Virus record (IMG/VR): IMGVR_UViG_2548876869_000012
Length of the DNA stretch: 34,288 bases
DNA from: a virus
Taxonomy: Duplodnaviria; Heunggongvirae; Uroviricota; Caudoviricetes
Reading direction: 5' to 3' (one strand)
Part shown: positions 7,047-30,127 of the stretch, in pieces
Numbering within the stretch: position 1 is the first letter of the stretch
Layout: each line of letters starts with the position of its first letter
The notes under the pieces: generated by a model
What the model saw: the letters and a program-made list of their open reading frames with translations, nothing else
Databases searched by the model: none
What the model was told of the DNA's origin: nothing
Translations under genes and position numbers: made by a program

Positions 7047-8237
7047 TTAATTGCTGTTAACCGAGGTGACCAGATTTGCCAGGTATTTATCGGTAATACG
7101 CTGGCGCAGGGTCAGGTTTTCAAGAGGAGGCACCGGGGTATAGTCGTAGTCGATATACAGTTTTCCGGCCTTGAGGGTTTCCGCATCGTTGGATTCTTCG
7201 CTGAACCAGCAGGTCGCATCCACGATATAGCCGTTTGTTTTCAGCTCACGGAATTTGGCATTGATGCCGTCAACGATGTCGCGAATCAGCGTTGCGGTGA
7301 TGGGCTTGTCCACCGCCCACATGTGCGCCTCAGCCATCGTGTCGGCTAGCACCTGCGCGGTGCGGGTGTAGTTTTCAAAGAGGAACAGCGGGTCATCAGA
7401 GCAGGTACGGTTACCCCAGAAGCGGAAACCGTCACGGCGAATCAGCGTTGTGACACCTGACTCGTTCAGCAGGTCAGCATCGGTGCCGGACTCCTGCAAA
7501 TCCCAGAATACAGATGCGCTGATGCCGGTAACACCGTTCACCCCGACATTGGACAGCGTTTTATGCCAGCCCTGCTCCTGGTCGATTTTAGCGCGCAGGC
7601 CCAGTGCACGGGCAGTGGCATACGCGGTGGCGGTGGTACTGGTGACCGTATCCCATGCGAGGAAATCCGGCCAGATGACCATCAGCTCACGCTGGCTGAA
7701 ATTCTGGCGGTAAGCTTTCACCTCGGAAACGGTCTTACAGCCCCATGCGCTGATATACCCGAAAGCGCGCAGCTTCTGACAGACTGATGCCAGTGCAACA
7801 GCCACCTCTTTGGTGTCCAGTCCCGGCACGCCGAGAATACGCGGTTTAACACCGGTTACCGACTCCGCCGCCAGCAGGGCTTTCAGTCCGGTGTACTGAC
7901 CGTTTTCGTCGGTGGTGCCGATGATATTGGAAACGGTCTGCGCGAGTTTCGTTTCCTCGTCGTCGCCGGTGCCGTCTTCCACACGCACGACAACGGTGAC
8001 CGGTTTTGACTGGTCGGCGATGGCCTGCAACGATGCCGCCAGCGTGCCTTTTTTACCGGCCTTTGCAATTGCGCTCTGCACATTGGTAATCAGCACCGGT
8101 TTATTGAGGGGGAAGGTTTCCGCATCCGCATCGCTGGCCGTGCAGACCATGCCGACAATGGCAGTGGATACGGTGGAAATGACGCGGGTGCCGTCGTTAA
8201 TCTCCAGCACCTGCACGCCGTGATGATAGTCACTCAT
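7047..8237 (-). CDS. FI: Contractile tail sheath protein FI (396 aa)
   Basis: P2 synteny and length. Confidence 0.9.
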   Translation of the reverse strand: MSDYHHGVQVLEINDGTRVISTVSTAIVGMVCTASDADAETFPLNKPVLITNVQSAIAKAGKKGTLAASLQAIADQSKPVTVVVRVEDGTGDDEETKLAQTVSNIIGTTDENGQYTGLKALLAAESVTGVKPRILGVPGLDTKEVAVALASVCQKLRAFGYISAWGCKTVSEVKAYRQNFSQRELMVIWPDFLAWDTVTSTTATAYATARALGLRAKIDQEQGWHKTLSNVGVNGVTGISASVFWDLQESGTDADLLNESGVTTLIRRDGFRFWGNRTCSDDPLFLFENYTRTAQVLADTMAEAHMWAVDKPITATLIRDIVDGINAKFRELKTNGYIVDATCWFSEESNDAETLKAGKLYIDYDYTPVPPLENLTLRQRITDKYLANLVTSVNSN

Positions 8238-8330
8238 CCGTTTAACTCCGTGGTTAATGGGTGCAACTATTTTCTGTTGGGCAGTGCATGAGACGCTATT
8301 TGACCTGGCTGGTCAGTGGATGAAACAACA

Positions 8331-8359
8331 GATAAAGAAAATGCGGGCAATTCGCCCGC
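8331..8359 (-). terminator. Putative intrinsic terminator (minus strand) insulating the F operon promoter region from read-through
   Basis: Hairpin GCGGGC-AATTC-GCCCGC (8343-8359) followed on the minus strand by a T-rich tract (plus-strand GATAAAGAAAAT, 8331-8342). Confidence 0.4.
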
Positions 8360-8576
8360 ATGTCCTGATTTGTACACACTCATTTTCCGACTGACAGTTT
8401 ACATAGCCCAAACGCTATCAAATCTGACAGCCTGCTATGAGCGAAAAGCGTTAAATCTCACGATATCTGCTACCGGGAAAAATTTCGATTATCTTCGATG
8501 GGAACTTTGATAATGTAGTAAATGCCATTTTCAGCGATCACTTTTCAAGCGTGTGTAAATGATTAATGTTAAAAAA

Positions 8577-8606
8577 TTGACTTCACTGAAATAAGGTTGC
8601 TAGTAT
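8577..8606 (+). promoter_or_regulatory. Putative sigma70 promoter for the Z/fun-locus cargo operon (-35 TTGACT 8577-8582, 18-nt spacer, -10 TAGTAT 8601-8606)
   Basis: Sequence match by eye; followed by RBS AAGGA (8636-8640) and the ATG at 8648. Confidence 0.35.
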
Positions 8607-8647
8607 TTTTGGAGCAACCATTAATGTTTTTTATTTAAGGAATGTAA

Positions 8648-8929
8648 ATGACATACGCACTGATTGATAATTCAACTCTAACTGCAGTCCAAAGAATCGA
8701 GGGGAAAGTAAAAACAAGATCGAAGGACTCAGTAGATACAGACATAATAGCATTTGAGAACTATATACAGTCTATTTTGTTCTATGATCACGTTATCGCG
8801 GTTGATGATTATATTCCAGAGTACCGTGGGAGTAGGATTTCAAGTTTCAGAGAGATATTATTTCTTGATAAAGCACAATATGGGTTGGATGAAATTGAAA
8901 GTGAAGCAAAAAAATATCTGATGCATTGA
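8648..8929 (+). CDS. Hypothetical protein (93 aa), first ORF of the cargo module at the Z/fun locus
   Basis: ATG with RBS AAGGA; AT-rich; opposite strand to the flanking late operons; no motif I recognise. Confidence 0.55.
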   Translation: MTYALIDNSTLTAVQRIEGKVKTRSKDSVDTDIIAFENYIQSILFYDHVIAVDDYIPEYRGSRISSFREILFLDKAQYGLDEIESEAKKYLMH

Positions 8930-10065
8930 AACCTAAAATTCGTGGTGGAACATTTGTTAATGACGATTTTAAAAAACTAATTGAACTTCTTCAGACACAT
9001 ATCATATGTACATGGGACATTAGTTCAAGTGTTTATCATCTAACACTGAAGAACTTATCTGATGGAGGTAAGGAGTTTGAAAAATATGGTAACATTGCTG
9101 CTGCCATTTTTTCAGAACTGCGTGATGCTGCTGAGTCTGGTAATAGAACAAATGGCGATGTTGAACTTCTCGATCGATTTGGCAACCCTATTCGCAAGGG
9201 GTACAAAGTTCCCGGAGCAAAATGGGGGGATGGCACATCTGCTGGTGAAGCATCAGATGCAATCAAAGCATTCGTGGCTTCGCTTGTATGGCTGGCTAAT
9301 CGGGCAGTATTTTATTCTCTCACAGCTAAGTACCTTCAAGCAGATACTTTTTTATATCCATTACGTCAGGCGTATCAACAGACATATTTAAGCCAAAACT
9401 GTCAGTATGGTTTTGACTATGCTAAACATATTGTAGAAAACTTTTCCACTTCGTTAAGTCATGATCTCATTGATATTCATTCTGGTGGTAAAGCTGTAGC
9501 AACAGCAACTTCGCTTCCTTTATTTTCGGCATGGCTCGCAAAAGAAACTGGTGATCCAAGTTGTATTGTTGAAGCTGCTTATAACATAAGGGACAACAAC
9601 GAATTTGTAAGGGCCCGTGAGAAAATGCGAGAAATAAAGCGCTTGTTTGATGAAAATGAATTGCCTCAAGCTAATAAGTCAGTAAGAGCATTGCTTACTG
9701 AAGTATCGAAAGAATCAGATTATATTCGAACTAAGTATGGGCTCAAGACTAGACAAGGTGTACCTGTAACTAAGCTTGTACATGTATACAATACTGTTGC
9801 GGCTATTAATTCCCTTCCGAAACTACCGACCTTTAATTTTAAAGTTAAAGTTCCTGATTTCTTATATGATCTTAAAAAACCCAAGGGGTTTCGTGCTCTC
9901 TATCGAAATTTGACTAATGATCTTTCTACTGTGTGGTCGTTAGGAGAAGCTCGAGATATTCTTGGAAGTAAAGTTGTGATAGATAATCATGCAAGAATTT
10001 ACAGTCCGAAGCATGAAGAACCGCGTTTCAAAAACTCTCATTCCCCATATAAGAGCCCGATGTAG
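8926..10065 (+). CDS. Hypothetical protein (379 aa), second ORF of the cargo module; TTG start overlapping the upstream stop (TTGA), possibly the continuation of one frameshifted gene
   Basis: Long open frame in AT-rich DNA; no in-frame ATG near the 5' end; A7 run at 8908-8914 immediately upstream would join it to the 93-aa ORF by a -1 shift. Confidence 0.55.
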   Translation: MKPKIRGGTFVNDDFKKLIELLQTHIICTWDISSSVYHLTLKNLSDGGKEFEKYGNIAAAIFSELRDAAESGNRTNGDVELLDRFGNPIRKGYKVPGAKWGDGTSAGEASDAIKAFVASLVWLANRAVFYSLTAKYLQADTFLYPLRQAYQQTYLSQNCQYGFDYAKHIVENFSTSLSHDLIDIHSGGKAVATATSLPLFSAWLAKETGDPSCIVEAAYNIRDNNEFVRAREKMREIKRLFDENELPQANKSVRALLTEVSKESDYIRTKYGLKTRQGVPVTKLVHVYNTVAAINSLPKLPTFNFKVKVPDFLYDLKKPKGFRALYRNLTNDLSTVWSLGEARDILGSKVVIDNHARIYSPKHEEPRFKNSHSPYKSPM

Positions 10066-10179
10066 CTTAAGAAAAAGACACGCCCACCTTGTGCGTCTAC
10101 TTCTGGCACAGAGCGGACTCTCAGATTAGGCTTTACTCTGTGCCATAGATATGTAAGCTCACACCAGAGCTCATACAAC

Positions 10180-10707
10180 TTATTGCGGCATTTCCGGCCA
10201 TTCAGGATTTGCAGGATCCACACGACTGACCAGAACACTGTAGCGTTCCCATGCCTCCAGTCGACTGCGCTCCTCATCTGTTGCCATATTCAGCCTGACA
10301 GCGCGCTCCAGCGGCAAAATCACGGATTCAGCATCTGCAAGAAGTCTGGCTTTCCGATTTTCTGCCTGCTGCTGCAATTCCTCTGCCGTATAAATTCGTT
10401 TAATCACTGTACAGTCCTTAAACATCCAGTTCCCTGAAATGTCCGCCCGTCGGTTAGCAGTAATATCCGGCACTTCAACAACACTTAATCCATCCGGTCT
10501 GATAGCTGTCACATCCTTTTCCACATAGCGGATAATATTATCTTTGTCGTACGCTATTTTTATCGTGTCATCAGCAAAATACTTTTGTTCTTCGTACCAG
10601 TTCTTACCATCTTCTGAAAAAAACCAGACAACATCAAAGTCCTTTGTCAATTGATATTGTTCAACCGTTTTTGGATTACCTGCCGTTATATTTATCAAAT
10701 GCTGCAT
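10180..10707 (-). CDS. G: Tail fiber assembly protein G (175 aa)
   Basis: P2 synteny and length; immediately follows H. Confidence 0.85.
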
Positions 10708-10710
10708 AAA

Positions 10711-13029
10711 TTATACCTGCGCCACGTTATACCAAGTCCCGTTAATGTATTTCTGCACCGGTCTGTAATATACGCCACCAATGTTATCGGCAGAGTTTGA
10801 GCCGGTATCCTGAACAATAATGCCGGAATATACACACCCGGACGGTGCCTGATGTGTCCATGTCATACCATTGTTCGCAGGTTTGTATGTGGCAGCACCA
10901 CCAAGCCGGATATCCCGGACATAGCGTGAATCAAAATTACTATAGTTAGATGGTGATACCTGCCCGTTAACAGCAAAAGTGATGCTGTTATCTGTATTTC
11001 TCTGACTGTAAAAATGCCAGCCTGCATCATCACCTAATTCAGCCACCACCGGACGACTTGAGTTTCCCCACAAATTGAATGCGGCTTCCTTCGTGGATGT
11101 ATTACTGCTGCTGACCGTGAATTTTTTCCCGCTACCGGCACGTACTTTGGTACTTGAGGCAATATCACCAGTAACACTCAGGCCATGCCCCATTGATACA
11201 GCACCCGTGGCATCATTTATAATCAGTGGTCTTAAATTATTATAAGTGCCTAATCTGTCACCTGATTTAGTCAACATAAAATAAGTGCTGCTGCCATCAT
11301 TCCTGATAAAGAATCCATAATTGCCATAAGCAATGCGCAGACCATTAGCACTGCTTGATGTAATCTCACCTCTTGAACGGAGACCATAAGCGGAGCTGAG
11401 TGATAATTCTTCCTGAGCATCAGTATTACCAGTCGCCCAGCGAACTACCCCGCCCTGTACTGTTTCATGCCAGATAGTGTCTCCTTCTCCACCACGAAAC
11501 TTTCTGAGATATTTTTTGCCGCCTCTGGTGCCTGAACATAAGGCCGTAGACATATAGGCATTCTGGCTTCCGCCATCCTGATTAATCGTTCCGGTCATTG
11601 CGTCGCCCTGACGATTCCAGTCACGACGCCAGCCGGGGGAGTAGCCGTCCCCATGATTAATGTAAGTGAATTGCGCGCTGGTTGTACCGCCACCGCTTGA
11701 TGTTGTCGGCGTGGTCACTCGGATAGTGATTGCAGATTTAGTTCCCATGACCTCGACGACACAACCAGCCAGGTGGATATCACCACATCCGGTATCCGTA
11801 ATGATTTTGTTATTTGCATATGACCAGGAGCCTTTGCACATCCAGTACGGATGATTAAATGCACCACGGGAATCCAGCCATTCAATAAACTGAGCGGTTG
11901 TCCAGTTTCCGGCTTCAGTGCTCAAACCGCCGCTATAAGCACGACAGGCACCGATATTTTTCGTGAAGGTATCCTTTCCCGGAATATCCGCACCGTTCTG
12001 ATCTTTCTGAAGACGTTTTTCAGCATTGTCATAGGCAGACTTCACTGCTTTTGGCGTTGCCGCGAGGGTTTCAGAATCACTGTTGGTGGCGCTACTGAGC
12101 TGGACAAGCCCTTTTCGCGCTGTGGTGGCATCCTGTGCAGTGTATTTCCCGTTAGCAAGGTCATACGCTGTCTTAACCGCCTTTGGCGTTGCCGCAAGCG
12201 TTTCAGAATCGCTGTTGGTGACGCTACTTAGCTGGACAAGGCCTTTTCGCGCGGTGGTGGCGTCCTGTGCGGTATATTTCCCGTTAGCCAGGTCATATGC
12301 TGCTTTTACCGCTTTTGGTGTTGCAGCGAGCGTTTCAGACGTGCTGTTGGTGGCACTACTGAGCTGGACAAGACCTTTTCGCGCTGTGGTGGCATCCTGC
12401 GCAGTATATTTCCCGTTAGCAAGGTCATACGCGGCCTTTACCGCTTTCGGCGTTGCGGCCAGTGTTTCAGACGTGCTGTTGGTCGCACTGCTTAACTGAG
12501 TAAAACCTTTGGCGGTCAGCGAGGCGTCCGGGTGACGTCGTGACTGTTCGTGCTCTGCAATTTTGTCATCAACGTAATCCTGCGTCGCCATCACTGTTGT
12601 GGTGTCAATGGTCAGCTCCACTGAGGCCACACTGCTGACGATGATGACCATGCGACAGGTCTGCGAACGCCCTGAGCCTTCGGCGAGAGCTGGCTTATAA
12701 CTTTCGGCCATGTTCGCCACGGCAATTAATGTTCCCGCATCATCGTACAGGCCAAGCTCACGCATCCAGAAACCGCCCACCTCCGGCGGAATAACCAGCT
12801 CTGCGATAATATAATTACTGTTTCGTTTGTCCTGGCTGATTTTGTTCAGCGCATGTCGCCAGACTTCATGGATAAGTCCGGTCTGTCCGGCATCCGGGAC
12901 AGGCAATTTACCACCGCCATCCCCGACGGCCATCGTGGTAATGTTGACCTTCCGCCCTCCCGGTGCGGTTGCCGCTGCCAGCTTTGCTGCACCGGCAGTG
13001 GTGATAACGGTTCTGAATTTTGTGCTCAT
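10711..13029 (-). CDS. H: Tail fiber protein H (772 aa) with internal 44-aa tandem repeats
   Basis: P2 synteny; conserved N-terminus; about 100 aa longer than P2 gpH (669 aa) because of the repeats. Confidence 0.9.
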   Translation of the reverse strand: MSTKFRTVITTAGAAKLAAATAPGGRKVNITTMAVGDGGGKLPVPDAGQTGLIHEVWRHALNKISQDKRNSNYIIAELVIPPEVGGFWMRELGLYDDAGTLIAVANMAESYKPALAEGSGRSQTCRMVIIVSSVASVELTIDTTTVMATQDYVDDKIAEHEQSRRHPDASLTAKGFTQLSSATNSTSETLAATPKAVKAAYDLANGKYTAQDATTARKGLVQLSSATNSTSETLAATPKAVKAAYDLANGKYTAQDATTARKGLVQLSSVTNSDSETLAATPKAVKTAYDLANGKYTAQDATTARKGLVQLSSATNSDSETLAATPKAVKSAYDNAEKRLQKDQNGADIPGKDTFTKNIGACRAYSGGLSTEAGNWTTAQFIEWLDSRGAFNHPYWMCKGSWSYANNKIITDTGCGDIHLAGCVVEVMGTKSAITIRVTTPTTSSGGGTTSAQFTYINHGDGYSPGWRRDWNRQGDAMTGTINQDGGSQNAYMSTALCSGTRGGKKYLRKFRGGEGDTIWHETVQGGVVRWATGNTDAQEELSLSSAYGLRSRGEITSSSANGLRIAYGNYGFFIRNDGSSTYFMLTKSGDRLGTYNNLRPLIINDATGAVSMGHGLSVTGDIASSTKVRAGSGKKFTVSSSNTSTKEAAFNLWGNSSRPVVAELGDDAGWHFYSQRNTDNSITFAVNGQVSPSNYSNFDSRYVRDIRLGGAATYKPANNGMTWTHQAPSGCVYSGIIVQDTGSNSADNIGGVYYRPVQKYINGTWYNVAQV
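12027..12519. repeat. Tandem repeat inside H: about 3.7 copies of a 132-bp (44-aa) unit
   Basis: Unit start GTTTCAGA recurs at 12068, 12200, 12332 and 12464; protein unit TAQDATTARKGLVQLSSATNS(T/D)SETLAATPKAVKxAYDLANGKY. Confidence 0.85.
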
Positions 13030-24878: not shown

Positions 24879-25025
24879 CGCCCGCTTCATGCAGGGCTTT
24901 AAATGCAGTGCAGCAGTAATGGTTAGAATGCGCCAGCACTGATGTTAGATACCAGAACTGGCATTTAAAAATGAATGCAAATAAATGCACCAAACTAATT
25001 ACTTACTGACAAAAAATAAGTAAAA

Positions 25026-25910
25026 TCAGGCGCAAGTTGGCATTGAGACCCCTTTCAGGGTATTAGGAATAATTATTTCAGGAGAAAAAATCATCACTTC
25101 CTCTCCAGATTTTTTGAGATGCGCTGTATATTGCAATGAATACTCAACTTGCGGAAATCCATTATAAATATCTTTAATTTCCTTAGCGTTATCATAAGAA
25201 ACAAGCCAATTTGGGAAATTAATTTCTGTGAGTTTCTTCATAACCAATACATGATCATCATGCTCATAAAAATTCCTGTAAAGCCCTTGTCCTTTAATAT
25301 AGTAAGGAGGATCCAAATACAAAAGAATTTTATTTTTATCCACCTTTCCCATATTATCCATAAAATTCAAGGCATCAAGAAAATCCAAAGCATCCAGATT
25401 AGTTACTACTATTCTTTGATTATAATTTGCTATCTTCTCAATTCTTGAAATTAAATCCGCCCTGTTAAAGCGAACATCCATTTTCCATTTTCCATTTTGT
25501 GATTTCCCGCCTATAACCCCCGCCTTGAGAATACCTGAACGATTTGTTCTATTTAAGAAAAACGCAGCAAAGCCAACCTCAAGCTTAGTAAACTCAGAAG
25601 GATTCGAAATAACATAGCGATGAAAAGACCATTCATCCATATCTATCTTTGCTCGGCTAATAAGTCGGCAAAGCTCATCAGTATCACTAACAACAGATGA
25701 CCAAAAAGAATAAACAGCAAAATCTGCATCATTTATATAGATTTTACGGACATACTCTTCCAATAATAATTCTAAAGCCACCCCTGCACCACCAGCGTAA
25801 GGTTCTGCATATGCTCCATCATTCAACGAGTTTTTTTCAATAACATCTTTTAAAAAGTAAGATAACTTACCTTTCCCGCCGGGGTATCTTAATGGAGTAT
25901 AAAATTTCAT
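25026..25910 (-). CDS. Dam-family DNA N6-adenine methyltransferase (294 aa)
   Basis: Motif I-like EPYAGGAGV near the N-terminus and catalytic DPPY (YLDPPYY); AT-rich cargo at the P2 tin/old position; ATG with GAGGG RBS. Confidence 0.8.
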   Translation of the reverse strand: MKFYTPLRYPGGKGKLSYFLKDVIEKNSLNDGAYAEPYAGGAGVALELLLEEYVRKIYINDADFAVYSFWSSVVSDTDELCRLISRAKIDMDEWSFHRYVISNPSEFTKLEVGFAAFFLNRTNRSGILKAGVIGGKSQNGKWKMDVRFNRADLISRIEKIANYNQRIVVTNLDALDFLDALNFMDNMGKVDKNKILLYLDPPYYIKGQGLYRNFYEHDDHVLVMKKLTEINFPNWLVSYDNAKEIKDIYNGFPQVEYSLQYTAHLKKSGEEVMIFSPEIIIPNTLKGVSMPTCA

Positions 25911-25979
25911 AAATCCCTCTCATTCCTGATTTTGTAGTTTATCAGTTTCTGGACATCCATGTCCAGATGTAGACAAATC

Positions 25980-27482
25980 TCACTCACTCCAAATAAGGCT
26001 TAATAACAACTCAAAGTTATCCCACTCAGTGTTGACAGCCTCTTTTGAGGGAATTAAGTGTGGGTTATGTACATACTGCTGCAATGAACCATCATGTTTA
26101 GTTATTTGGCTCGAGAAAGTTATTACAGCCGTACATTGACTCCCCGTCATCTTTTTATTTTCCCGAAGGAAATTAGCACACATTTTAACCTTATCATGAA
26201 GCCCTGGAGTTCTATGTGGTTCCTTAAATTGTAACTTGTTTTCTTCAACAAAAGTGCTTACAGAGAGATCTATAAATATTCTCAACAATATTGAGATAGC
26301 ATTAGGGGTGTTATCAAATGTCAGATGCGACTTAAGCTCATTAAATATTCTAGAGCATTTCTTATGCCCTCTAAAATTAAATTTCACATAAGATGGCACC
26401 AACACATTACGATCTACTTTAGGAGGAGTTTTTCCCTTGTTTTTATTCTGTTCCGTACCCGAAACTTTAGATTTACTCTCTTCTGTGCCTACATGTCTAG
26501 AATAATCATCTTCCTGTTTATCCACACCTGTATTCTTTAAGGCATCACCTTCTGAAAGACCTGCTTTCTTTACACTCACAGATGCATCATTTTTGTCAAT
26601 AGAATCATGTTTTTTCTCTGTAAGAAAAGATTTAGGCTCTAGTAAACTCCACGGCTTATCTAAAAGAGATTCTGAAGGTTTTATTTTTTGTTCAATAATA
26701 AATGTAACCCTGTCATCTTGGCTACGAATCCTATTAACAGTAAAACAAGCCTTACCTTTATCATCCTCTTCAATCATTACATCTAAAATATTTTTTAATT
26801 GTGCACAAAAACGTTCATAAGGCTGATATGAGTATAGAACTCCATTAATGCTTTTTAAATTAAAATAATCCCTCACCTTTAAATCACCAAAAAGACGCGT
26901 GATGTTTGTGATTTTTAAAAGTCTTTTTTTAGCAATTATCTCTTTATATAAATCAGTATTGAACTCTATAAATGTAAGTATTTGATTACCAAATGACTGC
27001 TTACCCATCCTAGCCAGATGTCGTGCTTTTTCTGTTGCAGTCCATTCAACTCTTCCAACTCCAGCATTTTGACCAGTATGCTTTAAATTGACCCAATGCT
27101 CATATTCATCATCGTCAAAAAGAACGCAGTTATCTATAACATTAATATCTTTAAGCTGAGTAATCTTAAGTTTTTCAAAAGCTTTCCGTGCTTTTTCTGT
27201 TGGTGCAAGTCTAGGAGAGTGTAAAAGTTTAAGGGCTGTAACTCGACGATTACCTTCAGCAACGACGAAAAAGCCAGATTCCTCTTCACTAGGATAAACT
27301 AATATGTTTTCAGACGGATCTAAACCTTTCGAAGCAATATCTTTAGCCAAGCGATAAATGCGGTCGTACTGCAAGTCAAGCATCTTGGCAATAGCATCAC
27401 GCTGATTTTCTGCTGACGTCGGGAAACGAGGGTTATCAACATCCAAAAGTAACTTATTGATATTCATTGATTTTAGTTGATT
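25980..27482 (-). CDS. ParB/Srx-superfamily N-terminal-domain protein with unassigned C-terminal domain (about 500 aa; alternative upstream ATG at 27554 gives 524 aa)
   Basis: N-terminus INKLLLDVDNPRF ... VVAEGNRRVTALKLL resembles the ParB N-terminal nuclease/CTPase fold (GxxRxxA box); preferred start ATG at 27480-27482 has a GAGGA RBS; AT-rich; sits 69 bp upstream of the Dam gene on the same strand. Confidence 0.6.
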   Translation of the reverse strand, partial: NQLKSMNINKLLLDVDNPRFPTSAENQRDAIAKMLDLQYDRIYRLAKDIASKGLDPSENILVYPSEEESGFFVVAEGNRRVTALKLLHSPRLAPTEKARKAFEKLKITQLKDINVIDNCVLFDDDEYEHWVNLKHTGQNAGVGRVEWTATEKARHLARMGKQSFGNQILTFIEFNTDLYKEIIAKKRLLKITNITRLFGDLKVRDYFNLKSINGVLYSYQPYERFCAQLKNILDVMIEEDDKGKACFTVNRIRSQDDRVTFIIEQKIKPSESLLDKPWSLLEPKSFLTEKKHDSIDKNDASVSVKKAGLSEGDALKNTGVDKQEDDYSRHVGTEESKSKVSGTEQNKNKGKTPPKVDRNVLVPSYVKFNFRGHKKCSRIFNELKSHLTFDNTPNAISILLRIFIDLSVSTFVEENKLQFKEPHRTPGLHDKVKMCANFLRENKKMTGSQCTAVITFSSQITKHDGSLQQYVHNPHLIPSKEAVNTEWDNFELLLSLIWSE

Positions 27483-27841
27483 CATCAACATATCCTCTGT
27501 TGAATCTTTATGATAAAAATTAATTATTTTTATCATAAATGATAGCGTAAACATAGTCTTATGAACGACATCAGCCCTGAAGCTTCAAAACTATCATTTA
27601 CGTTTGCGAGGCACCATCTATCACATTGATTTATAATAAGTATCTTTATTTTCACTGCATTGCTCTCAAAAAATCACATAGATGGAAATTCCCCGTTGAC
27701 ACACTCCCAAGTGATGCAGATACATTTCAAGTGCTTCATACACATGATAACGGCTATCCCCCTAAATTCTATGCGTTTCTTTTCCCTCCAGCACAAGGTT
27801 GAAATATCTTGCGTGCAGCTTTACTTTGTGAATCTTTGTCA

Positions 27842-30127
27842 TTATATCCGCGCCATTACTGTTGAGAATCCCGGACACTCATCAGCGACCGGATACGTGA
27901 ATTTTTTCCCGTCATAATTTACGGTCGCGCCACGCGCCAGCGCCTCAAGCTCCCATCGCTGCGGCCTGATACCGTTCTGAGCAAGGTCAACGCGGATACG
28001 GGTAATTTGCATTCTTTCCGACCGGGTCAGTCTGGCCGATGGTGCAATTTCATGTGGTTTTAACGGGCTTCCGTTTCTCTGCTGACGATTTGGTGTTCTC
28101 AGCCCGTATTTTAATGCGCCCCTGAGCGCCCTCACGACCTCCGGGTCATTCCATTCGATAACACCGTCATCAACCAGATTAAGCACTGCTGCGGCGTGTT
28201 CAGAAGGTGTGGGAGCCGGTAACGAAGTATCACCACCGGTGAGCTTTCCACAGTTATTGACAGGACTCCGAGGCGCGGCGATGCCGCTTTTTAAAGTCAA
28301 AGGCTCAACGACCGGTACTTTCGGAACAATGCGCCAGTCCGTCGTTCTGGTGATATGAATATGACGCGCGCCGAGATGCGGCGCGTAAATGCCGACCACT
28401 CTCTCGACTTCTTCCTCGTACTCGTTAACTTCATCCGACGGACTACGGGCAACCCTGACAGTCTGACAATCGCGCGGAACATTTGCCCCACCCTGCGCGC
28501 TGATATACAACGCAAAATCACCACTGTCTGCGGCAGCGCGTGCAGCCTCGACGCGTTCGTCAAACTCATCAGCAATGCTGACGCCGCGAGGCAATTTGCG
28601 TAGTTCACGGTAAGCCCCCATTGTCGGCAGGCCAACCGTTTTAAATTGCGGAATGCGCCACGTTGACGCCCATGCGGTAACAGCCGCGGCAGTGTCTTTC
28701 AGCGGCCTGCCGGTATCGTTATCGAGCTGACCATCCAGTGCATAGCCATCGATGTTTTTTGAGATGTATTTCGCGATATATCCCGCAGCACCGCCCCGGT
28801 TAAGGTGTTTTGCCTGAAAACGGTTTCGCGCGGCTCCTCTTTCGTCACCATCCTCTTTGAGCGCATAGCGACGCATGATTTCGATAATCTGGTTACGCTG
28901 GCGTGGATTACAAAAAAGCATCATATGCCAGTGCGGCGTTCCGTCGTGGTGTGGCTCGACGACTCGCAAACCGTAGACCTGTAAATCATTATCCTTGAAT
29001 GCCGTGCGCATCAGGCTCCAGATGCGGCAGAGATAACGCTGCGCATCCTTTGGATTAAATGCCTCATCATTCCAGCCGTGATTTAGCTGGACGGTTTTAC
29101 TTTCGCCTTTTCCGACCTGACGTGTCGGGTGATACTTTGACGGCGCGGTCAGAGTGATAAACATCCCCACATCACCCTCTGCGGCGGCGTAACGCTCAAT
29201 ACCGGCGATGGTGTTCATCAGCTCCATCCGGCGAATTTCAGGATTAGAAATACTGCCCATCACCTTACTGATAAGGTCGATGCGCTCGCCGGTTTCCCTG
29301 TTTTCGAGGTCACACGATTTAAGAAATTCCAGATTTGCCTGGCGGCGTGCACGCACATCACGAATGGCATGTTTACTGGCATAAGGAGAACGGTCTTTAT
29401 TGACCTCCCCGACAGCAATCAGTAACGCCTCATGCCAGCGCATACGCTGGCCTTTAAGCTGATGAGTCCACCACTCATCGTTAAACAGACGGGCAATGGC
29501 AGAATATGCCTGCCTCGTGGTCATCTGTCCTTTACGGTATTTTTTCCAGTAGAGAGGGGAAATATTGAAAGCACGTGCAGCGCCAGCAACATGACCATAC
29601 AGATGCGCCTGCGCCTCATCTGTAAACAGCGATTCTTTCTCGCCATGTGCATCAACCCATGCATCGCAGAGTTCCTCATACATCATGAAAAGCTGCGATG
29701 AGATACGGGCGGCAAACTTTTTCAGCTCCTTGTCATTCATCCCCGGCAGACGCGCATAATGGTCACGCTCTGCCAGAAACAGCAACGACGCGTCGGTGTT
29801 CATTTCATGGCGCTGATTCACGCGCTCAATACGCGGCCATAAACGGCGCTGAAAAGTGGATGTGAGGAAATAAAATCCGTGCACCGGGCTTTTATTGCGC
29901 CGGATGTAGTCATAGCGTGAAGTAAACAGCGAGCGCAAAAAGTAAGGCAGGCGATTAATCGTGGATAAAACACCTTGCACCTGACGCATCTCGTCACGTG
30001 TAAGGGGTCTTTCGCGCCCGACGGCCTCGCGTGGCGCGTTCCATGCATAAGCACCGGTAAACGTCTCACCGGTGCCTGCGGCAAATGCTGACGGAGGGAC
30101 AAAACGCCCGGAGGCTTTAACGGCCAT
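27842..30127 (-). CDS. A: Replication initiator A, rolling-circle nickase (761 aa)
   Basis: Start at MAVKASGRFVPPSAFAAG...; HUH motif in EPHHDGTPHWHMMLF and tyrosine motif GYIAKYISK; P2 length. Confidence 0.9.
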   Translation of the reverse strand: MAVKASGRFVPPSAFAAGTGETFTGAYAWNAPREAVGRERPLTRDEMRQVQGVLSTINRLPYFLRSLFTSRYDYIRRNKSPVHGFYFLTSTFQRRLWPRIERVNQRHEMNTDASLLFLAERDHYARLPGMNDKELKKFAARISSQLFMMYEELCDAWVDAHGEKESLFTDEAQAHLYGHVAGAARAFNISPLYWKKYRKGQMTTRQAYSAIARLFNDEWWTHQLKGQRMRWHEALLIAVGEVNKDRSPYASKHAIRDVRARRQANLEFLKSCDLENRETGERIDLISKVMGSISNPEIRRMELMNTIAGIERYAAAEGDVGMFITLTAPSKYHPTRQVGKGESKTVQLNHGWNDEAFNPKDAQRYLCRIWSLMRTAFKDNDLQVYGLRVVEPHHDGTPHWHMMLFCNPRQRNQIIEIMRRYALKEDGDERGAARNRFQAKHLNRGGAAGYIAKYISKNIDGYALDGQLDNDTGRPLKDTAAAVTAWASTWRIPQFKTVGLPTMGAYRELRKLPRGVSIADEFDERVEAARAAADSGDFALYISAQGGANVPRDCQTVRVARSPSDEVNEYEEEVERVVGIYAPHLGARHIHITRTTDWRIVPKVPVVEPLTLKSGIAAPRSPVNNCGKLTGGDTSLPAPTPSEHAAAVLNLVDDGVIEWNDPEVVRALRGALKYGLRTPNRQQRNGSPLKPHEIAPSARLTRSERMQITRIRVDLAQNGIRPQRWELEALARGATVNYDGKKFTYPVADECPGFSTVMARI

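What the first reader, a model, noticed from the sequence alone, without database searches (positions are those of the whole stretch)
8648..10065. Uncharacterised AT-rich module at the P2 Z/fun hotspot, transcribed opposite to the tail operons
Between FI and G, where P2 carries Z/fun (T5 exclusion), lie 93-aa and 379-aa ORFs on the opposite strand to all flanking late genes. They have their own candidate sigma70 promoter (8577-8606) and a strong RBS, and the DNA is AT-rich compared with the backbone. Neither protein shows a motif I recognise: no Walker A, no transmembrane segment, only a possible R-x5-H near the C-terminus (RIYSPKH). The location, composition and independent transcription are typical of lysogen-expressed defence or abortive-infection morons.
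Basis: partly seen in the sequence, partly recalled or inferred. Interest (0 to 1): 0.8.

Follow-up and report, generated by a model that had tools for sequence, protein, structure and literature searches.

The report
Frameshift-split orphan gene at P2 hotspot
The two "ORFs" are one 472-residue gene of unknown function, broken here by a missing A in a run of eight. It sits in a known prophage defence hotspot, and elsewhere it travels between bacterial phyla as a single-gene integron cassette, so it is a reasonable but untested candidate for a new anti-phage gene.

Summary
The ORFs, the AT-rich composition (GC 0.37 against about 0.55) and the opposite-strand orientation are all real. However, the 93-aa and 379-aa ORFs are two halves of one gene. 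Seven complete E. coli genomes carry the same 1.8 kb with one extra A (A8 against A7 at 8908-8914). That gives a single 472-aa protein (WP_000220361.1, "hypothetical protein", phrog_13435).

The broken allele recurs in at least 14 public contigs, so it is a real allele. It is probably inactive.

The gene is always a lone cargo. It is an integron cassette with its own attC site in 13 distinct loci. It also occurs in an ICE, in lambdoid prophages, in defence islands, and here in the P2 Z/fun hotspot.

A defence role is plausible (about 50%) but unproven. The mechanism is unknown.

The parts
8208..8447 (.). Conserved P2 backbone on the left of the hotspot. It includes the FI-proximal intergenic region and the homologue of the 'right inverted repeat' annotated in the P2-EC67 Z-region record.
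   Evidence: 93.8% identical to AJ512685 positions 1-240. Other P2-like phages match the query only up to about 8440.
8341..8361 (-). Terminator-like hairpin plus T-run on the late-gene strand, upstream of FI.
   Evidence: 9-bp stem with 6 GC pairs, followed by TTTCTTTATC.
8448..10095 (+). Foreign cargo of 1648 bp, GC 0.374. It holds a single gene with its own upstream region.
   Evidence: Boundaries come from alignment to P2-EC67 and other P2-like phages. Composition.
8448..8647 (+). A 200-bp upstream region (promoter or leader) that travels with the gene in Enterobacterales.
   Evidence: 82% mean column identity with the upstream regions of homologues in the Lonsdalea chromosome, a lambdoid-type prophage contig, a Serratia ICE and a Pantoea symbiont. 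It is absent from more distant homologues.
8577..8606 (+). Candidate sigma70 promoter, TTGACT-18-TAGTAT, with a TG extension.
   Evidence: 9 of 12 matches. The -35 element TTGAyT is conserved in relatives, but the -10 element is not. No more than a candidate.
8637..8642 (+). Shine-Dalgarno sequence AAGGAA, 5 nt upstream of the ATG.
   Evidence: Sequence read. A GAGG/AAGG box is conserved across the family.
8648..8929 (+). 5' fragment of the gene. It encodes residues 1-89 of the 472-aa protein, then 4 out-of-frame residues and a stop.
   Evidence: It contains the most conserved block of the family: D7 N8 T10 R16 G19 D32 E37 D47 D53 D54 Y55 R63.
8908..8914 (+). A7 homopolymer, the site of the -1 frameshift. 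Intact alleles have A8.
   Evidence: this is the only difference from NZ_CP027366 in 1801 bases. The tract is not conserved in orthologues, which read GCAAAAAGAAT.
8926..10065 (+). 3' fragment of the gene, encoding residues 94-472. The frame is open from 8905. The only possible start is a TTG with no Shine-Dalgarno sequence, overlapping the upstream stop (TTGA).
10072..10097 (-). Short hairpin (10077-10097) followed on the - strand by a T5 run (10072-10076). It is a possible insulator against antisense read-through from the G operon.
   Evidence: Sequence read, fold. The stem is perfect (GGACGCAC/GTGCGTCC) in the Lonsdalea homologue. The function is inferred.
10096..10209 (.). Conserved P2 backbone on the right of the hotspot, the homologue of the annotated 'left inverted repeat'. 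It includes the stem-loop at 10105-10144.
   Evidence: 95.6% identical to AJ512685 positions 1387-1500. The fold z-score is -2.8.

Best explanation
**What the feature is (shown)**
- Positions 8648-10065 are one gene. It encodes a 472-aa cytoplasmic protein of an uncharacterised, compact and strongly conserved family (phrog_13435, WP_000220361.1).
- In this window the gene is split by loss of one A from an A8 tract.
- The gene and about 200 bp of its own upstream DNA form a 1.65-kb cargo in the Z/fun hotspot of an otherwise complete P2-like prophage, which is integrated between yegQ and yegR.
- The family is a self-sufficient single-gene module. In most non-enterobacterial genomes it is an integron cassette with a cognate attC site. 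In other genomes it is lone cargo in an ICE, in lambdoid and other temperate phages, in defence islands and on plasmids.

**What it probably does (inferred)**
- The intact protein is most likely a stand-alone anti-phage or anti-MGE protein expressed from the lysogen.
- The N-terminal alpha/beta domain carries a cluster of near-invariant acidic and arginine residues: D7, D32, E37, D47, D53-D54, R16 and R63. They sit at the C-terminal ends of parallel strands. I take this to be a metal-dependent phosphoesterase or nuclease-type active site. The fold shows only a faint PIN-like resemblance.
- The large, mostly helical C-terminal part (about residues 140-472) would then act as the sensor or regulator.
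- The frameshift cuts the protein inside the N-terminal domain. The copy in this window is therefore probably a pseudogene, or at best a very leaky one.
For: **One gene, frameshifted**
- seven complete genomes have A8 and annotate a single 1419-nt CDS.
- there are 282 close homologues and 325 representative clusters. Nearly all full-length ones are 460-477 aa, and none shows a domain fusion.

**A real allele, not a sequencing error**
- the exact 93-aa and 379-aa products occur in Shigella sonnei and Enterobacteriaceae records and on 14 contigs, including short-read assemblies.
- apart from the indel, the haplotype is identical to the A8 allele.

**Hotspot cargo**
-; literature.

**Integron cassette**
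- the V. vulnificus array has 29 attC-like repeats, and two of them flank the gene.
- GTTAGAGC lies 20-35 nt before the start codon and GCTCTAAC lies 1-6 nt after the stop codon. This holds in 13 distinct loci from Gammaproteobacteria, Nitrospira, Cyanobium and Desulfobacterota.

**Other mobile or defence contexts**
- Serratia ICE.
- Pectobacterium, next to a HEPN/Toprim protein, CcdAB and a CTD1-MComp1-SMC system.
- Desulfotalea, next to MksBEF.
- phage contigs, next to terminase, a methylase and a PIN_3 protein.
- neighbouring genes hit the LmuA, PD-T4-2, TIR, SIR2 and PDC models.

**Purifying selection**
-.

**Structure**
- pLDDT 82, pTM 0.86.

**Recurrent inactivation elsewhere, as expected for a costly gene**
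- frameshifted copies in three other genomes.
- a truncated copy on Pseudomonas megaplasmids.

**Priors from the literature**
- 6 of 8 unknown-function P4 hotspot loci protected against phages.
- About 18% of the V. cholerae integron cassettes of unknown function that were tested had anti-phage activity.
Against: - There is no experimental evidence of any phenotype.
- No defence-family HMM matches, and no Pfam or NCBIfam model matches.
- Many neighbours in the 23 loci examined are ordinary housekeeping genes, which is what lone cassette insertions would give.
- Integron cassettes and prophage morons also encode many non-defence functions.
- The -10 element of the proposed promoter is not conserved.
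Confidence: 0.5

Rival explanations
1. The gene is an accessory gene with a function other than defence. Candidates include a stress or metabolic enzyme, an anti-defence protein, a lysogenic-conversion factor, or a toxin-like addiction or competition factor. It would simply hitch-hike in cassettes and prophage hotspots.
For: - It matches no defence model.
- Most integron cassettes that have been tested show no anti-phage activity (about 82%).
- P2 hotspots also hold partitioning systems, toxins and other cargo.
- In V. vulnificus the neighbouring cassettes are acetyltransferases, glyoxalase-like proteins and similar genes.
Against: - It recurs in defence-rich places: P2 hotspot 2, the Pectobacterium island, and next to MksBEF.
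- There is no signal peptide or transmembrane segment that would fit a surface conversion factor.
- There is no conserved partner gene, so it is not a classical toxin-antitoxin pair.
- There is no similarity to any enzyme family.
Confidence: 0.3
2. The A7/A8 tract is a phase-variable contingency switch. It would turn a costly gene off and on by slipped-strand mispairing or transcriptional slippage, so the window shows the OFF phase rather than a dead gene.
For: - A7 and A8 alleles are otherwise identical.
- Both alleles occur in Shigella sonnei and E. coli collections.
- The frameshift lies in the least conserved linker of the protein.
Against: - The homopolymer is not conserved. Close orthologues read GCAAAAAGAAT, and their longest A run is 5-6. 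The tract therefore looks like an incidental AGA-to-AAA change.
- Runs of 7-8 A slip at low rates (general knowledge, not tested here).
- All A7 contigs share one gene haplotype, which fits a single event inherited by a lineage.
Confidence: 0.12
3. The locus is a genuine two-gene operon (93 aa plus 379 aa) with translational coupling through the overlapping TTGA.
For: - The stop codon and the TTG start codon overlap by 4 nt.
- Both products are annotated as separate proteins in some records.
Against: - Every homologue in every lineage is a single protein of about 472 aa.
- The split falls inside the predicted N-terminal alpha/beta domain, between helix 80-92 and strand 97-99.
- There is no Shine-Dalgarno sequence before the TTG.
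- An otherwise identical allele with one more A is a single CDS.
Confidence: 0.02
4. The frameshift is a homopolymer sequencing or assembly error in this window.
For: - Homopolymer indels are the commonest error type.
- One A7 record (GCA_026135605.1, L017) has additional single-base deletions typical of noisy long reads.
Against: A7 is found in at least 14 contigs from independent samples, including several assemblies built from public sequencing runs and older NCBI assemblies. The surrounding sequence is otherwise error-free and identical.
Confidence: 0.03

Closest known systems
P2 Z/fun locus cargo: fun(Z) of phage P2, and the PD systems that Vassallo et al. 2022 found at 'P2 defence hotspot 2'
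   Same: It occupies the same insertion site between FI and G and is bracketed by the same conserved backbone repeats. It is a single AT-rich foreign gene, oriented against the late operons, with its own promoter-like region.
   Different: There is no sequence similarity to fun or to any PD-T4, PD-T7 or PD-lambda model in PADLOC. No phenotype is known. The copy here is frameshifted.
Integron gene cassettes that encode streamlined single-gene anti-phage systems (Darracq et al. 2024 preprint, 10.1101/2024.07.02.601686)
   Same: Homologues are promoterless single-ORF cassettes with a cognate attC site (R'' GCTCTAAC, R' GTTAGAGC). One sits in a V. vulnificus superintegron.
   Different: At about 1.55 kb it is large for a cassette. 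This family is not among the systems named in the parts of that paper I read. The window copy has lost recognisable attC boundaries and gained a 200-bp upstream region.
PIN-domain nucleases (VapC, PAE0151, HARP)
Single-protein prophage defence genes of unknown mechanism, for example the DUF4238 protein from the P2 A-Q hotspot (Rousset 2022)
   Same: It is a single-gene, domain-poor cargo of a P2-like hotspot, and it is found outside prophages too.
   Different: It is a different protein family, it lies at a different hotspot, and it has not been tested.

Membership tests
Cargo of the P2 Z/fun (FI-G) variable hotspot | Lies between the tail sheath gene FI and the tail-fibre assembly gene G of a P2-like prophage. 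| tested here: met
   FI at 7047-8237 (-) and G at 10180-10707 (-). The whole prophage lies between yegQ and yegR.
Cargo of the P2 Z/fun (FI-G) variable hotspot | The flanks are conserved among P2-like phages, while the content between them varies from phage to phage. | tested here: met
   762 E. coli genomes match only the flanks, and 7 share this cargo. Other genomes carry Shedu, SMEK-domain, restriction-endonuclease or acetyltransferase genes there. Boundaries at 8447/8448 and 10095/10096.
Known anti-phage defence families (PADLOC-DB 2.0.0, NCBIfam 20.0) | A significant match to a family HMM. | tested here: not met
   no family at E up to 10 for the fragments or the fused protein; 85 diverse homologues give only isolated hits with E above 0.007.
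PIN-domain nuclease | PIN fold: a three-layer alpha/beta/alpha sandwich with a five-stranded parallel sheet. | tested here: inconclusive
PIN-domain nuclease | Four conserved acidic residues: after strand 1, at the start of the helix after strand 2, and two in the C-terminal half of the domain. | tested here: not met
   D7 and D53/D54 could fill the first two positions. No acidic residue is conserved between residues 55 and 140.
PIN-domain nuclease | Detectable sequence or profile homology. | tested here: not met
   Pfam finds nothing at E up to 10. hhalign of A2 against the VapC profile A4 gives 0.24% probability. That VapC profile is narrow, so this is weak negative evidence.
Integron gene cassette | A single ORF bounded by an attC site whose R'' (RYYYAAC) follows the stop codon, with the R' core (GTTRRRY) split across the cassette start. 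| tested here: met
   Met for homologues: 13 distinct loci have GTTAGAGC upstream and GCTCTAAC downstream, and V. vulnificus has an array with 29 attC-like repeats. Not met for the copy in this window or for the Enterobacterales clade.
Phase-variable contingency gene or programmed frameshift | A slippery homopolymer conserved among orthologues, with both phases present in populations. | tested here: not met
   Both A7 and A8 alleles exist. However, the tract is absent from orthologues of 75-90% identity, except one.
Type II toxin-antitoxin module | A conserved adjacent partner gene. | tested here: not met
   No neighbour is shared between contexts. The cassette and the P2 cargo each contain only this gene.
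Tet/JBP-like 2OG-Fe(II) oxygenase (PF20515) | An HxD...H iron-binding triad and a double-stranded beta-helix fold. | tested here: not met

The most novel reading that the evidence does not exclude
WP_000220361.1 and its relatives could be a previously unrecognised single-protein anti-phage immunity family. The fold has no solved relative. The family would spread across bacterial phyla mainly as an integron cassette, and temperate phages (P2-like and lambdoid) and ICEs would have captured it repeatedly for inter-virus competition. Its catalytic centre would be a new acidic alpha/beta active site only faintly reminiscent of PIN nucleases.
Probability: 0.4. Interest if true: 0.7.

Novelty: new variant of a known kind. 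Interest (0 to 1): 0.55.

Why it matters
If the intact allele protects against phages, it would add a new single-gene defence family with an unknown fold and mechanism. It would also be a concrete example of the same module moving between two reservoirs now thought to stock bacterial immunity: integron cassette arrays and prophage hotspots.

The frameshifted allele that circulates in Shigella and E. coli is a natural loss-of-function control. The strongly conserved N-terminal acidic cluster gives immediate targets for mutagenesis.

Practically, gene callers split this locus into two "hypothetical proteins". That hides the family from hotspot surveys.

Tried and rejected
- **Family searches on the two fragments and the fused protein** (Pfam, PADLOC, NCBIfam): nothing, even at E up to 10. 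PHROGs returns only the family itself, annotated as unknown function.
- **PDB sequence searches** with two family profiles: only coiled-coil noise.
- **Fold searches:**
  - The afdb50 library was unavailable.
- **PIN homology** tested by hhalign against a VapC profile: rejected at the sequence level.
- **Scan of 85 homologues for shared weak Pfam hits:** a Tet-like oxygenase hint (7 of 85). I rejected it because no His triad is conserved.
- **Rfam on the locus:** nothing credible.
- **Terminal inverted repeats or IS-like ends around lone insertions:** none convincing. The only repeat of note is the weak repeat in the P2 backbone.
- **Accession and locus-tag searches of the literature:** no relevant paper.
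- **Isolated phage genomes (INPHARED):** no homologue by tblastn.
not conserved.
Full report
**Observation**

The two ORFs are present exactly as reported: 8648-8929 (93 aa, ATG) and 8926-10065 (379 aa, TTG). Both are on the + strand. They lie between the tail sheath gene (7047-8237, -) and the tail-fibre assembly gene (10180-10707, -).

The region is AT-rich. GC is 0.374 for 8448-10095, against 0.565 and 0.515 for the flanks. An open frame of 386 codons in DNA of this composition never arose in 500 shuffles, where the maximum was 185.

A sigma70-like site (TTGACT-18-TAGTAT with a TG extension, 8577-8606) and an AAGGAA ribosome-binding site (8637-8642) are there. However, promoter-like matches in the region are no more frequent than in shuffled sequence.

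**One gene, not two**

A megablast of 8400-10200 against 5,426 complete E. coli genomes found 762 genomes that match only the flanks. Seven match the whole stretch at 99.6-99.9%, and in each of them the match is 1802 bases long, not 1801.

In those genomes RefSeq annotates a single 1419-nt CDS, WP_000220361.1 or WP_254202777.1, "hypothetical protein". The only difference between the window and NZ_CP027366 is one A. The window has A7 at 8908-8914 and the intact allele has A8.

With A8 the reading frame runs ...ESEAKKISDALKPKIRGG..., and the two ORFs fuse into a 472-aa protein.

The split falls inside the predicted N-terminal domain, between helix 80-92 and strand 97-99. The 3' fragment has only a TTG start with no Shine-Dalgarno sequence. 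The copy in this window is therefore most probably inactive.

**Is the frameshift real?**

The exact 93-aa and 379-aa products are in public collections, as Shigella sonnei CSQ12330.1/CSQ12325.1 and WP_244405264/WP_244405266. The 93-aa ORF occurs on 14 contigs from independent samples, including several assemblies of public sequencing runs.

These contigs share the window's gene haplotype. Two of them differ in the P2 backbone upstream. So A7 is a circulating allele, not a one-off error. Intact copies also occur in S. sonnei.

The A8 tract is not a conserved feature. Orthologues of 75-90% identity read GCAAAAAGAAT, and their longest A run is 5-6. A selected phase-variation switch is therefore unlikely. 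The tract looks like an accidental mutational hot spot.

**The family**

The fused protein has no Pfam, PADLOC or NCBIfam match even at E = 10. It matches only phrog_13435, a family of unknown function (E 1e-293).

A search of 5.8 billion proteins gave 282 homologues. Nearly all are 472±2 aa, 50-90% identical, with no Pfam domain. They come from Pantoea, Serratia, Pectobacterium, Acinetobacter, Halomonas, Vibrio, Psychrobacter, Desulfotalea (72%), Citrifermentans and Candidatus Tenderia.

An exhaustive profile search of 1.84 billion cluster representatives found only 325 clusters. None shows a domain fusion.

Only 19 of 185,579 species genomes carry the gene. They include Nitrospira (72% identity), Cyanobium (60%), Desulfogranum (56%) and a spirochaete (35%). 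A Clostridium kluyveri plasmid has a 38% homologue.

High identity across phyla, constant length and rarity together indicate recent horizontal spread under strong purifying selection.

In an 85-sequence alignment reaching down to 20% identity, the best-conserved block is the N-terminus: D7 N8 T10 R16 G19 D32 E37 D47 D53 D54 Y55 R63. After it come scattered W, R, Y and P positions (W123, S128, W215, R219, Y223, P238, R240, P291, R324) and the extreme C-terminus (E457 ... P471 M472).

There is no transmembrane segment, no Walker A motif and no classical nuclease motif.

**Structure**

With the diverse alignment, AlphaFold2 gave a confident model (pLDDT 82, pTM 0.86).
- Residues 1 to about 140 form an alpha/beta domain with alternating strands and helices plus a beta-hairpin.
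- The rest is mostly long helices, with a small sheet assembled from distant strands, including the C-terminal tail.

Foldseek against the PDB found nothing. The best hit had E 0.057 and all probabilities were at or below 0.35.

I tested the PIN lead in two ways:
- A profile-profile comparison with a VapC alignment gave 0.24% probability.
- Only the first two of the four canonical acidic positions have plausible counterparts.

So the protein has an acidic alpha/beta N-terminal domain that may work like a metal-dependent phosphoesterase. It is not demonstrably a PIN protein.

A weak hit to a Tet-like oxygenase model in 7 of 85 homologues is not credible, because no histidine is conserved.

**Context here**

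The window is a complete P2-like prophage between yegQ and yegR.

The cargo spans 8448-10095. The flanks, 8208-8447 and 10096-10209, are 94-96% identical to the P2-EC67 "Z-region" record. In that record they are annotated as inverted repeats bracketing a different ORF.

At the same site other E. coli P2-like prophages carry Shedu, SMEK-domain, restriction-endonuclease, acetyltransferase+HTH or FlxA-like genes.

The literature identifies this site as a second P2 defence hotspot. It contains fun and three experimentally validated systems (PMC9519451). A hotspot inside the tail genes holds 16% of the defence systems found in P2 elements (preprint 10.64898/2026.02.27.708500).

**Context elsewhere**

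The gene is always a lone module.

In Vibrio vulnificus it sits in a superintegron. Twenty-nine attC-like repeats occur in 17 kb, and two of them bracket the gene.

The same cassette signature appears in 13 distinct loci:
- GTTAGAGC lies 20-35 nt before the start codon.
- GCTCTAAC lies 1-6 nt after the stop codon, followed by an attC-like palindrome that ends in GCGTTA(G/T).

These loci are from Desulfotalea, Tenderia, Zobellella, Halomonas, Nitrospira, Marinagarivorans, Thiotrichales, Cyanobium, Rhodocyclaceae and several gammaproteobacterial MAGs. R'' and R' are complementary, as expected for a cassette that carries its own attC site. This explains the "single gene dropped among housekeeping genes" pattern and the spread across phyla.

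The Enterobacterales clade (75% identity or more) lacks the attC ends. Instead it shares a conserved upstream region of about 200 bp (82% identity). This region travels with the gene into four settings: the P2 hotspot, a lambdoid-type prophage beside NinB/YlcG, a Serratia ICE between traC and traU, and the Lonsdalea chromosome.

More distant homologues lie next to the large terminase gene in two other temperate-phage types. One of these is beside a PIN_3 protein and a C5-methylase.

In Pectobacterium the gene sits in a defence/TA island with a HEPN-Toprim protein, CcdAB, TacA and a CTD1-MComp1-SMC system. In Desulfotalea it is next to MksBEF.

Among 146 neighbouring ORFs in 23 loci, PADLOC models for LmuA, PD-T4-2, PDC-S02/S66, TIR, SIR2 and HEC-01 were hit. 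Transposases and integrases also appear, together with much housekeeping.

No homologue exists in 50,697 isolated phage genomes.

**Interpretation**

Shown:
- It is one gene, frameshifted here.
- It belongs to an orphan, conserved, horizontally mobile single-gene family.
- It is a cassette-borne family that was captured in a documented defence hotspot.

Inferred:
- The intact protein is an anti-phage or anti-MGE protein. The published priors are 6 of 8 unknown P4-hotspot loci protective and about 18% of unknown V. cholerae cassettes protective. Together with the context evidence, I put this at about 0.5.
- The N-terminal acidic cluster is a catalytic, nuclease-like site. This is weaker, at about 0.25.

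Frameshifted copies in three other genomes, a truncated copy on Pseudomonas megaplasmids and the A7 allele itself all fit a gene that is costly when not needed. Draft-assembly errors cannot be excluded for the MAG copies.

**Novelty and verdict**

The hotspot and the idea of lysogen-expressed defence morons are known. This protein family is uncharacterised. RefSeq still calls it "hypothetical protein", and accession and locus-tag searches of the literature found nothing. It has no recognisable fold relative.

It is a good candidate for experimental testing, using the intact A8 allele rather than the allele in this window. Interest is moderate, at 0.55.

Noticed in passing
window 24920-28110: The other P2 hotspot, between the portal gene Q and the replication gene A, differs from the otherwise 96-99% identical prophage of E. 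coli 89-3156. That prophage has an OLD-like ATP-dependent nuclease there. This window carries a D12-class N6-adenine DNA methyltransferase (25026-25910, -; Pfam E 3.6e-16). It also carries a 524-aa protein with no Pfam match (25980-27554, -).
   Followed up: partly
window 8448-8647; L021:9800-10003; L053:5800-6003; L044:7800-8003: About 200 bp of non-coding DNA upstream of the gene is conserved (82% identity) across quite different mobile elements. It contains invariant blocks such as CTTACGATATCTGCTACCG. Conservation extends well beyond the candidate promoter hexamers, so it could be an operator, a leader or a small RNA. There is no Rfam match.
   Followed up: partly
L022, L023, L024, L026, L029, L031-L034, L003, L006, L025, L041 (gene ends): The same attC core pair (R'' GCTCTAAC, R' GTTAGAGC) accompanies the gene in bacteria from different phyla. 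The cassette, including its recombination site, therefore appears to move as a unit.
   Followed up: yes
L036:10001-11415, L037:10001-11417, L038:10001-11415: Homologues in a Pantoea stink-bug symbiont (three frameshifts), Desulfogranum japonicum (one) and a gammaproteobacterial MAG (one) are also frameshifted. These may be real pseudogenes or assembly errors.
   Followed up: partly
window 10711-13029 (-): The tail-fibre protein H contains four tandem copies of a unit of about 45 aa (...TAKGFTQLSSATNSTSETLAATPKAVKAAYDLANGKYTAQDATTARKGLVQLSS...), visible in the translation.
   Followed up: no
window 10072-10097 and 10105-10144: Two stem-loops lie between the cargo stop codon and gene G. The first is inside the cargo and is followed by a T-run only on the late-gene strand. 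It may stop antisense read-through from the H-G operon into the cargo. The second is in the P2 backbone (fold z-score -2.8).
   Followed up: partly
L055:5040-5459 and 7430-8224: In a lambda-like viral contig, the 45% homologue is flanked by a PIN_3-domain protein and a C5 cytosine methylase, next to the large terminase gene. This is another accessory cluster at a phage genome end.
   Followed up: no
L058 (P. aeruginosa megaplasmid NZ_CP095921 21918-22919): A truncated (333-aa) distant homologue lies beside an msrE/mphE/armA resistance island with IS elements on megaplasmids of about 500 kb.
   Followed up: no
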